Source of the DNA: Escherichia coli
GTDB lineage: Bacteria; Pseudomonadota; Gammaproteobacteria; Enterobacterales; Enterobacteriaceae
NCBI RefSeq assembly: GCF_003790525.1
Contig: NZ_CP033635.1
DNA length: 64,000 nt
Strand: one strand, 5' to 3'
Part shown: piece by piece, positions 63,297 to 63,910 of the stretch
Layout of the letters: every line of letters starts with the position of its first letter
Position numbering within the stretch: position 1 is the stretch's first letter
Position numbers and translations under genes: made by a program
The notes under the pieces: model-generated
What the model was told of the DNA's origin: nothing
Seen by the model: the letters and a program-made list of their open reading frames with translations, nothing else
Database searches by the model: none

Positions 63297-63910
63297 TGAA
63301 CTCCTCGTGCTTTATTATTATAAAAGCACAACGCATTTATACTCATATTAATTAACGAAACACTGATACAGTTTGATTTATTCTTCGCTCAAACTCATTA
63401 GCTTAAATTCTTTACCCACAACTGTAGCATATATAATATTATCAAAAGTCAAAGCTGGGACTATCAAATTTCGCTCATTTTCAAAAATACAATGTAATTT
63501 TAGCAATCATCTTAATTGCAGGATCTCTTATTGCATGTGAAAAATTCTGTAATGATTAGACAATAACCGCGTTCATTTATCACGCGTTATAAATGTGAAA
63601 CTGGCTTCTTGCAGATGCTCTTAACCTCTACAGGAGGATTTATCCCGCCATTTCAGAACTATCATATTTACCTTAAATGATCATTTCAGCCATATAACAC
63701 GCTCAACCTCACAAATGGTTTACACTGTCTATTGTTTGGGTAATTTAAGTAAGTCAGCTACGAGCAACCTTGAGTGGGTAGCCAGCAATGGACTCAAACC
63801 CAATCAGGTGTTCAGATTGTTTCAGAATTGTATTAAAAACAATGTATTAAATAATCTGATAACGTTTGGTCGTAGTGTGACGCAGACAGCAAGCTAATAA
63901 GGAAATGATT

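What the first reader, a model, noticed from the sequence alone, without database searches (positions are those of the whole stretch)
63297..63910. About 600 bp AT-rich leader upstream of the orphan gene, divergent from ybjP
The region between the orphan gene start (63296) and ybjP (63911) is long and AT-rich, with homopolymeric A/T tracts typical of H-NS-bound, xenogeneically silenced promoters. It probably also carries the insertion boundary. The only ORF in it (63715-63897, 60 aa) has no recognisable features.
Basis: inference. Interest (0 to 1): 0.3.

Follow-up and report, generated by a model that had tools for sequence, protein, structure and literature searches.

The report
Inserted DNA supplies new ybjP promoter
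This AT-rich stretch is the right-hand end of a 2.5 kb insertion carried by about a fifth of E. coli genomes; its ybjP-side half holds the transcription start sites mapped for the core gene ybjP in strain EDL933, an ordinary but clear case of a swapped regulatory region.

Summary
The region is AT-rich (34% GC against 51% for the window) and lies between an orphan gene on the minus strand and ybjP on the plus strand. Its A/T runs are no more frequent than chance.

It belongs almost entirely to a 2,548-bp insertion (61345-63892). This insertion replaced 46 bp at the core of the ancestral 125-bp ybjQ/ybjP promoter region. The right boundary lies at 63892/63893, 18 nt before the ybjP ATG. The insertion is present in about 1,125 of 5,426 complete E. 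coli genomes and absent from other Escherichia species and Salmonella.

The region is not one "leader" but two halves:
- **Orphan-proximal half (63264-63578):** evolves almost neutrally. It contains one conserved predicted promoter for the orphan gene, for which published EDL933 data list no start site.
- **ybjP-proximal half (63579-63892):** three times less variable, with no indels. It contains the mapped EDL933 start sites of ybjP, 177, 179 and 208 nt upstream of the ATG, against 56 nt in K-12.

The best reading is a switched intergenic region in which island DNA now drives ybjP. H-NS binding is untested. The 60-aa ORF (Z1096) is probably not a gene. Interest is modest.

The parts
61345..63892 (.). 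2,548-bp E. coli-specific insertion that replaces 46 bp of the ancestral 125-bp ybjQ-ybjP intergenic region
   Evidence: Homology to K-12-type genomes ends at 61344 and resumes at 63893. Present in 1,122-1,128 of 5,426 complete genomes; the empty site is in 4,296. Other Escherichia species and Salmonella have the short site. No terminal repeats, target-site duplication or tRNA. No true phage or plasmid match.
61494..63263 (-). Orphan gene: 589-aa protein with a pentapeptide-repeat segment (aa ~355-470)
   Evidence: Pfam Pentapeptide hits. A single 50%-identity cluster among 1.84 billion representatives. dN/dS 0.17-0.26; segregating sites by codon position 19.9/14.1/34.4%. Split or frameshifted in O157:H7, 2016C-3878, 1532MA and 2013C-4282.
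63264..63578 (-). Variable, very AT-rich half (30% GC): presumed 5' untranslated region and promoter region of the orphan gene
   Evidence: 95 of 311 columns segregate and 15 columns hold indels among 8 alleles. This is close to third codon positions of the orphan gene at 34%. No folding signal: z = -0.6.
63271..63276 (-). Shine-Dalgarno GGTGAT, 7 nt before ATG 63263
   Evidence: Read from the sequence. Invariant in 5 alleles.
63438..63467 (-). Predicted sigma-70 promoter of the orphan gene: TTGATA, 18-nt spacer, GATAAT
   Evidence: 10 of 12 consensus match. It lies in the only conserved block of the variable half, with 10-13% variable columns. No start site is listed for this gene in EDL933.
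63579..63892 (+). Conserved 314-bp block: promoter region and long 5' untranslated region of ybjP
   Evidence: 35 of 314 columns segregate and there are no indels. Fisher p = 2e-9 against the left half. The block holds the mapped start sites. An IS1-flanked deletion in strain CUWW06 spares exactly 63578-63910.
63703..63703 (+). ybjP / Z1096 transcription start site, 208 nt before the ATG (salt and stationary M9 conditions in EDL933)
   Evidence: EDL933 position 1033043 in PMC10469882 suppl. file 6. Mapped onto identical window sequence. -10-like CATATAAC at 63691-63698.
63732..63734 (+). ybjP transcription start sites, 179 and 177 nt before the ATG
   Evidence: EDL933 positions 1033014 (stationary LB and stationary acid) and 1033012 (exponential LB, M9 and salt; stationary salt). 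Mapping. -10 candidate TACACT at 63721-63726.
63715..63897 (+). 60-aa ORF, annotated as Z1096 in EDL933; probably non-coding
   Evidence: Identified by exact look-up. No family match. No Shine-Dalgarno. The two start sites seen in exponential LB/M9 and stationary LB lie inside it. Nonsense codon in 1532MA. Variable sites by codon position 5:7:10 and 9 synonymous to 12 non-synonymous changes, not significant. No more conserved than the 124 nt upstream of it.
63700..63725 (.). Insertion-sequence target sites: IS10/ISVsa5 at 63700-63708, IS1 at 63718-63725
   Evidence: Flank alignments of strains 23CRST013, Escherichia sp. 79.0191 and THO-008.
63893..63910 (+). Retained ancestral ybjP ribosome-binding segment (GCTAATAAGGAAATGATT)
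   Evidence: 16 of 18 identical to K-12; conserved as far as Salmonella.
63911..64000 (+). 5' end of ybjP (cut by the window end). Codons 4-8 (63920-63934) are a non-homologous patch linked to the insertion: RSLSL instead of the SKLTM of insertion-free E. coli and Escherichia
61361..61393 (-). Island-borne ybjQ promoter (TTGACA, 16-nt spacer, TAAACT at 61393..61366) and its start site at 61361
   Evidence: Promoter scan. EDL933 start site 1035398 mapped to 61361.

Best explanation
The region is the right-hand ~600 bp of a 2.55-kb foreign, AT-rich insertion. The insertion landed in, and replaced the core of, the ancestral divergent ybjQ/ybjP promoter region. That includes the sigma-S-type -10 element and the start site that K-12 uses for ybjP.

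The region has two functionally different halves:
1. **Orphan-proximal half (63264-63578).** This is the near-neutrally evolving 5' region of the orphan pentapeptide-repeat gene. It has one conserved sigma-70-like promoter (63438-63467) and appears silent under laboratory conditions. H-NS repression is possible but not shown.
2. **ybjP-proximal half (63579-63892).** This has taken over as the regulatory region of the core gene ybjP. RNA polymerase starts at 63703 and at 63732/63734, giving mRNAs with 177-208-nt leaders that run into the retained ancestral ribosome-binding site (63893-63910).

Shown here: the boundaries, the distribution, the polarity of the change, the conservation contrast, and the start sites (the last from published EDL933 data on identical sequence).

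Inferred: that the conservation reflects selection for ybjP expression, that the promoter elements named are the ones used, and that the orphan promoter is repressed.
For: **Boundaries**
- K-12 homology ends at 61344 and resumes at 63893. 46 bp in K-12 correspond to 2,548 bp here.

**Polarity of the change**
- Two other Escherichia lineages and Salmonella have the short 125-127-bp site. The replaced 46 bp are largely conserved among them (25 of 46 columns invariant through Salmonella).

**Distribution**
- Insertion in 1,122-1,128 genomes and empty site in 4,296, of 5,426.

**Two halves**
- Segregating columns are 95/311 plus 15 indel columns on the left, against 35/314 and no indels on the right. 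Fisher p = 2e-9, or 2e-5 without the most divergent allele.
- The right half is less variable than second codon positions of the orphan gene (14.1%). The left half is close to third positions (34.4%).
- The share of changes private to the divergent allele is similar in both halves (54% and 63%). This argues for one genealogy at two rates.

**Start sites**
- PMC10469882 suppl. file 6 lists ybjP start sites in EDL933 at 1033012, 1033014 and 1033043, giving 5' UTRs of 177, 179 and 208 nt, against 56 nt in MG1655.
- These map to 63734, 63732 and 63703 on sequence identical to the window.
- The lowest variability (3-10%) is at 63649-63735, around these start sites.

**Orphan side**
- No gene-specific start site is listed for EDL933_RS04970.
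- The predicted promoter sits in the only conserved block of the left half.

**Deletion endpoint**
- The IS1-flanked deletion in CUWW06 removes 61509-63577 but keeps the conserved block.
Against: - The start sites were measured in EDL933, not in the strain of this window.
- The promoter hexamers upstream of them are weak. The consensus scan found no plus-strand promoter in the region, and promoter-like sites are not enriched: 13 found against 14.2 expected.
- Against the most divergent allele, the right half (8.6% different) is no more conserved than synonymous sites of the adjacent ybjP (8.3%). A recombination mosaic could therefore explain part of the contrast, and alleles are visibly mosaic.
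- IS elements sit on the promoter (63700-63725) in three strains without loss of the locus, so ybjP expression from here is dispensable at least sometimes.
- No expression comparison between the two ybjP upstream types was available.
Confidence: 0.62

Rival explanations
1. The whole 600 bp is simply the H-NS-coated, silenced promoter and leader of the orphan gene, with no function for ybjP.
For: - AT-rich foreign DNA.
- Orphan gene without a listed start site in eight conditions in EDL933.
- IS1 and IS10 insertions cluster here.
Against: - Three mapped ybjP start sites lie in the right half. They are used in exponential LB, M9 and salt and in stationary phase.
- The right half is three times less variable and free of indels.
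- Only 18 nt of native sequence remain upstream of ybjP, so ybjP must be transcribed from island DNA.
- No H-NS high-affinity motif in the region.
- A/T tracts at chance level.
Confidence: 0.15
2. The right half is conserved not by selection but by history. Recombination tracts entering from the conserved core gene ybjP, or a more recent common ancestry of that segment, make it look conserved. The start sites are incidental promoters of the kind AT-rich DNA creates.
For: - Alleles are mosaic. For example, L017 matches the window at 98.8% in the left half but at 86.6% at the island's left end.
- Against the divergent allele, the right half (8.6%) equals ybjP synonymous divergence (8.3%).
- Divergence in flanking core genes is very uneven: dS 0.02 to 0.29.
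Against: - Against O157:H7, the right half differs at 4 of 302 sites, while ybjP synonymous sites differ at 11 of 120.
- The same bipartition of alleles is seen in both halves, and the share of changes private to the divergent allele is similar.
- The right half has no indels, against 15 indel columns in the left half.
- The conservation minimum coincides with the mapped start sites.
Confidence: 0.18
3. The right half is conserved because the 60-aa ORF Z1096 (63715-63897) is a real small protein or a regulatory upstream ORF co-transcribed with ybjP.
For: - The start site at 63703 lies 12 nt before its ATG and is assigned to it in EDL933.
- The ORF is intact at 60-61 aa in all the main alleles seen, including the 83%-identity one.
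- Its stop lies 13 nt before the ybjP ATG.
- 9 of 21 changes are synonymous, against 4-8 of 21-22 in the other five frames.
Against: - No Shine-Dalgarno.
- The start sites seen in exponential LB/M9 and stationary LB (63732/63734) lie inside the ORF.
- Nonsense codon at codon 13 in 1532MA.
- The codon-position split of 5:7:10 is not significant.
- The 124 nt upstream of the ORF are equally conserved: 10.5% against 12.0%.
- An ORF this long arises in 24% of shuffles.
- No family match.
- Not found in the held supplements of three ribosome-profiling papers.
Confidence: 0.05

Closest known systems
Switched intergenic regions / horizontal regulatory transfer in E. coli (concept as summarised in the Piggy paper, PMC5890482)
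   Same: The same core gene pair (ybjQ, ybjP) is flanked in different strains by non-homologous upstream DNA. The start sites of the core gene lie in the replacing DNA and the 5' UTR length changes from 56 to 177-208 nt.
   Different: The replacing DNA is not just an alternative intergenic sequence. It is a 2.5-kb insertion with its own gene, and both flanking core genes receive new promoter DNA. No expression difference has been measured.
Xenogeneic silencing of AT-rich horizontally acquired DNA by H-NS (e.g. Singh et al. 2014, PMC3923964, listed)
   Same: Foreign DNA of 30-38% GC in a 51% GC genome. The orphan gene has no detected start site in eight laboratory conditions.
   Different: H-NS occupancy is not known for this locus. 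Half of the region is transcriptionally active towards ybjP. No high-affinity H-NS motif is present in the region.
Ancestral ybjP promoter of K-12 (RpoS-dependent according to Lacour and Landini 2004, as cited in bioRxiv 10.1101/2025.03.19.644130)
   Same: Drives the same gene through the same ribosome-binding site.
   Different: The ancestral start site is 56 nt upstream, with a GCTATTAT -10 element that lies exactly on the left junction of the insertion (61340-61344). In this window that element is broken and sits 2.5 kb away from ybjP.

Membership tests
Horizontally acquired (xenogeneic) island | Composition departs from the host genome | tested here: met
   33.2% GC for 61345-63892 against 51.2% to its left.
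Horizontally acquired (xenogeneic) island | Absent from related strains and outgroups at the same site | tested here: met
   Empty site in 4,296 of 5,426 E. coli genomes, in two other Escherichia lineages and in Salmonella.
H-NS-silenced promoter | H-NS occupancy (ChIP), or derepression in an hns mutant | not testable with these tools
   No H-NS ChIP or hns-mutant data for an insertion-carrying strain were found.
H-NS-silenced promoter | High-affinity H-NS nucleation motif (TCGATAAATT-like) | tested here: not met
   No match with up to 2 mismatches in 63264-63910. The window total of 79 compares with 65 +/- 7 expected. This is a weak test, since H-NS also binds by composition.
H-NS-silenced promoter | Target gene transcriptionally silent under standard conditions | tested here: met
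   No gene-specific start site for EDL933_RS04970 in eight conditions (PMC10469882 suppl. file 6). This does not show that H-NS is the cause.
Switched intergenic region (horizontal regulatory transfer) | Non-homologous upstream DNA at a locus defined by the same flanking core genes | tested here: met
Switched intergenic region (horizontal regulatory transfer) | The promoter or start site of the core gene lies in the replacing DNA | tested here: met
   EDL933 start sites map to 63703, 63732 and 63734. The K-12 5' UTR is 56 nt.
Switched intergenic region (horizontal regulatory transfer) | Altered expression of the downstream gene between alleles | not tested
   No comparative expression data were available.
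Mobile element (IS, transposon, integrative island) | Terminal inverted repeats, target-site duplication, integrase or transposase, or a tRNA attachment site | tested here: not met
   Best terminal repeat scores are at noise level. No duplication at the junctions and no tRNA. The only gene is the pentapeptide-repeat orphan.
Small protein-coding gene (Z1096) | Reading frame kept and substitutions biased to synonymous or third positions | tested here: inconclusive
   Intact in 7 of 8 alleles with one nonsense allele. Variable sites 5:7:10 by codon position; 9 synonymous against 12 non-synonymous.
Small protein-coding gene (Z1096) | Translation signals and evidence of translation | tested here: not met
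   No Shine-Dalgarno. The start sites seen in exponential LB/M9 and stationary LB lie inside the ORF. Absent from the held ribosome-profiling supplements, which may be incomplete.
Known RNA family (Rfam) | Match reaching the family threshold | tested here: not met
   The best hits in 61000-64000 are far below gathering scores.

The most novel reading that the evidence does not exclude
The conserved 314-bp block (63579-63892) is a selected, island-borne regulatory module. In about a fifth of E. coli genomes, including O157:H7 and Shigella sonnei, it has replaced the sigma-S promoter of ybjP, which is conserved from Salmonella to E. coli. ybjP was recently described as the lipoprotein partner of TolC. 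The block puts ybjP under different control through a long, possibly structured 5' leader (folding z = -2.6) and perhaps an upstream ORF.
Probability: 0.3. Interest if true: 0.45.

Novelty: new member of a known kind. Interest (0 to 1): 0.3.

Why it matters
It gives a precisely delimited natural example of promoter replacement. One insertion destroyed a conserved divergent promoter core and supplied new start sites to both neighbouring core genes.

YbjP has just been described as a lipoprotein partner of the efflux duct TolC, and it is RpoS-regulated in K-12 (bioRxiv 10.1101/2025.03.19.644130). About 21% of sequenced E. coli genomes, including O157:H7 and Shigella, may therefore regulate it differently from the laboratory strain.

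For annotation, the result warns against labelling the whole stretch as the orphan gene's leader, and against calling Z1096 a gene.

Tried and rejected
- **Rfam scan of 61000-64000:** only sub-threshold noise.
- **Terminator scan:** none found.
- **H-NS motif search:** none in the region.
- **Phage and plasmid collections:** no phage match. The three 'plasmid' matches are records of 0.73-4.9 Mb, apparently chromosomal sequence filed as plasmids.
- **Search of 100,044 species representatives with the orphan protein:** one 2,972-bp contig in a 'Collinsella' metagenome bin, 96% identical, most likely E. coli contamination.
- **Profile search of 1.84 billion representatives:** no relative outside the E. 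coli cluster, apart from generic pentapeptide-repeat matches.
- **PDB, PADLOC and NCBIfam:** only weak repeat-level hits. HalA scores 24 bits against a cut-off of 250.
- **Similarity of the replaced K-12 46 bp to island DNA:** none, so this is a replacement and not a simple insertion.
- **Terminal repeats, target duplication, tRNA:** none.
- **RNA structure of the 177-nt ybjP leader:** z = -2.6, but no compensatory changes, and several variants break predicted pairs. Left as inconclusive.
- **Orphan 5' UTR fold:** z = -0.6.
- **Small ORF tests:** not significant.
- **Literature searches by locus tag (Z1095-Z1098, ECs0948-0953):** only incidental mentions.
- **Ribosome-profiling supplements:** no entry.
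- **Phylogroup distribution of the insertion:** not determined.

Full report
**What is there**

The stretch 63297-63910 lies between a minus-strand ORF (61494-63296) and the ybjP ATG at 63911 on the plus strand.
- It has 34.2% GC, against 50.5% for the window.
- The A/T homopolymer claim does not hold. There are three A5 runs, exactly the number expected from composition: 3.0 +/- 1.6 in 1,000 shuffles.
- The orphan gene more likely begins at ATG 63263. That codon is preceded by an invariant GGTGAT Shine-Dalgarno and is the PGAP start in strain UTME-7. The 11 codons between it and GTG 63296 change mostly non-synonymously.

**Boundaries and polarity**

K-12-type genomes have only 125 bp between ybjQ and ybjP. 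Alignment shows that homology to the window ends at 61344 and resumes at 63893. So 46 bp of the K-12 sequence correspond to 2,548 bp here, with no similarity between the two. Only the last 18 nt of the finding, the ybjP ribosome-binding segment, are native.

Distribution among 5,426 complete E. coli genomes:
- 1,122-1,128 carry the insertion.
- 4,296 carry the empty site.

Two other Escherichia lineages and Salmonella have the short site, and the replaced 46 bp are largely conserved among them, with 25 of 46 columns invariant through Salmonella. The insertion is therefore the derived state.

It shows no sign of a mobile element or a known source:
- No phage or true plasmid match.
- No terminal repeats, target duplication or tRNA.
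- Its single gene has no relative outside E. coli and Shigella in 1.84 billion representative proteins or in 100,044 species representatives.

That gene is a 589-aa protein with a pentapeptide-repeat segment. It has evolved as a real gene, with dN/dS 0.17-0.26 and segregating sites of 19.9/14.1/34.4% by codon position. It is nevertheless broken in several lineages, including O157:H7.

**Two halves**

I aligned eight alleles between 76% and 100% identical in this region.

| Half | Segregating columns | Indel columns | GC |
|---|---|---|---|
| 63264-63578 | 95 of 311 | 15 | 30% |
| 63579-63892 | 35 of 314 | 0 | 38.5% |

Fisher p is 2e-9, or 2e-5 without the most divergent allele.
- The left half behaves like third codon positions of the orphan gene.
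- The right half is less variable than second positions.
- The allele bipartitions and the share of changes private to the divergent allele are similar in both halves. This fits one history at two rates.
- A mosaic contribution cannot be excluded. Against that divergent allele the right half differs by 8.6%, the same as ybjP synonymous sites at 8.3%.

**What the halves do**

*Right half.* A published start-site map of EDL933 lists ybjP starts at 1033012, 1033014 and 1033043, which are 177, 179 and 208 nt upstream of the ATG (PMC10469882, suppl. file 6). The MG1655 value is 56 nt. On EDL933 sequence identical to the window, these map to 63734, 63732 and 63703. That is the least variable part of the region. 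A TACACT -10 candidate lies at 63721-63726, and CATATAAC lies at 63691-63698.

The K-12 start site, and the GCTATTAT -10 element I read upstream of it, lie on the left junction of the insertion. The ancestral promoter is therefore broken, and ybjP can only be transcribed from island DNA.

The same data place a ybjQ start at 61361, inside the island. It sits just downstream of a predicted TTGACA, 16-nt spacer, TAAACT promoter. Both core neighbours therefore received new promoter DNA.

*Left half.* The only conserved block (63440-63470) coincides with a predicted minus-strand promoter, TTGATA, 18-nt spacer, GATAAT. This would give the orphan gene a leader of about 168 nt. No gene-specific start site for the orphan gene is listed in any of eight conditions. 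That fits silencing, but H-NS itself could not be tested, and no high-affinity H-NS motif is present.

**The 60-aa ORF**

It is Z1096 of EDL933. Points in its favour:
- It is intact in all the main alleles seen.
- It lies 12 nt after the 63703 start site.
- It shows a mild excess of synonymous change, 9 of 21.

Points against:
- It has no Shine-Dalgarno.
- The start sites seen in exponential LB/M9 and stationary LB (63732/63734) lie inside it.
- Strain 1532MA has a nonsense codon.
- The codon-position split of 5:7:10 is not significant.
- The upstream 124 nt are equally conserved.
- An ORF of this length arises in 24% of shuffles.
- There are no family matches.

I regard it as probably non-coding.

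**RNA features**

There is no Rfam match. The 177-nt ybjP leader folds somewhat better than shuffles, with z = -2.6. The few variants give no compensatory changes, and several break predicted pairs.

**Comparison with what is known**

This is a switched intergenic region in the sense used for E. coli and S. aureus (PMC5890482). It was produced by an AT-rich foreign insertion of the kind H-NS is known to target.

It meets the sequence-level criteria of a switched region, and, through the EDL933 data, the criterion that the start site lies in the replacing DNA. The expression criterion is untested. It fails every test for a mobile element.

It matters mainly because YbjP was recently reported as a lipoprotein partner of TolC and is RpoS-dependent in K-12.

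**Verdict**

The object is an ordinary but well-resolved example of a known phenomenon. Interest is modest.

Noticed in passing
window 63700-63725: Insertion-sequence hot spot on the ybjP promoter. ISVsa5/IS10 is inserted at 63700-63708 (9-bp duplication) in strain 23CRST013, which is otherwise 100% identical to the window. An IS10 end lies at the same position in Escherichia sp. 79.0191, whose allele reads CGCTCAGCC, the IS10 target consensus as I recall it. IS1 is inserted at 63718-63725 in strain THO-008.
   Followed up: partly
L007 (strain CUWW06); window 61509-63577: An IS1-flanked deletion removes the orphan gene and the variable half of the region. It ends within 1-2 bp of the left edge of the conserved block, which is retained upstream of ybjP.
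   Followed up: partly
window 63920-63934: Codons 4-8 of the ybjP signal peptide are a 15-nt non-homologous patch: RSLSL here, against SKLTM in insertion-free E. coli and Escherichia and SKLSL in Salmonella and Citrobacter. The patch is strictly linked to the insertion and was not seen outside E. coli and Shigella among the 120 best homologues. The next ~36 nt are only 86% identical to insertion-free alleles.
   Followed up: partly
window 61317-61352: A second ybjQ start site in EDL933, 34 nt upstream at 61317, is not listed for K-12. It sits behind a hybrid promoter whose -10 (GATAAT) is ancestral DNA and whose -35 (TTCCCA, 61347-61352) is island DNA.
   Followed up: partly
window 60960-61283 (ybjQ) and loci L004-L008: ybjQ has unusually high synonymous divergence among insertion-carrying strains (dS 0.17-0.29), against 0.02 in two of the three artP comparisons. 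Divergence is very uneven across this neighbourhood, which suggests old haplotypes or repeated imports.
   Followed up: no
window 61494-63263: The orphan pentapeptide-repeat gene shows purifying selection (dN/dS about 0.2). Even so, it is split, frameshifted or truncated in O157:H7 (ECs_0949/ECs_0950), 2016C-3878, 1532MA and 2013C-4282. One database source labels a variant 'putative type III effector'. Incidental literature mentions are an insertion in z1097 in a D-serine-adapted EHEC isolate (PMC7486766) and induction of ECs_0950 under TiO2 and phage stress (PMC11301168).
   Followed up: partly
L009 (JAIJJM010000403.1): A 2,972-bp contig in a 'Collinsella sp.' metagenome-assembled genome carries this E. 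coli locus at 96% protein identity. This is most likely contamination of the bin.
   Followed up: no
hits H131-H133: Three records in the plasmid collection that match the insertion are 0.73-4.9 Mb long. They are evidently chromosomal sequences filed as plasmids.
   Followed up: no
window 61425 (plus strand): The EDL933 data list an internal start site at 1035334 (salt condition), within a small annotated ORF between the orphan gene and ybjQ. It maps to about 61425, antisense to the ybjQ promoter region.
   Followed up: no
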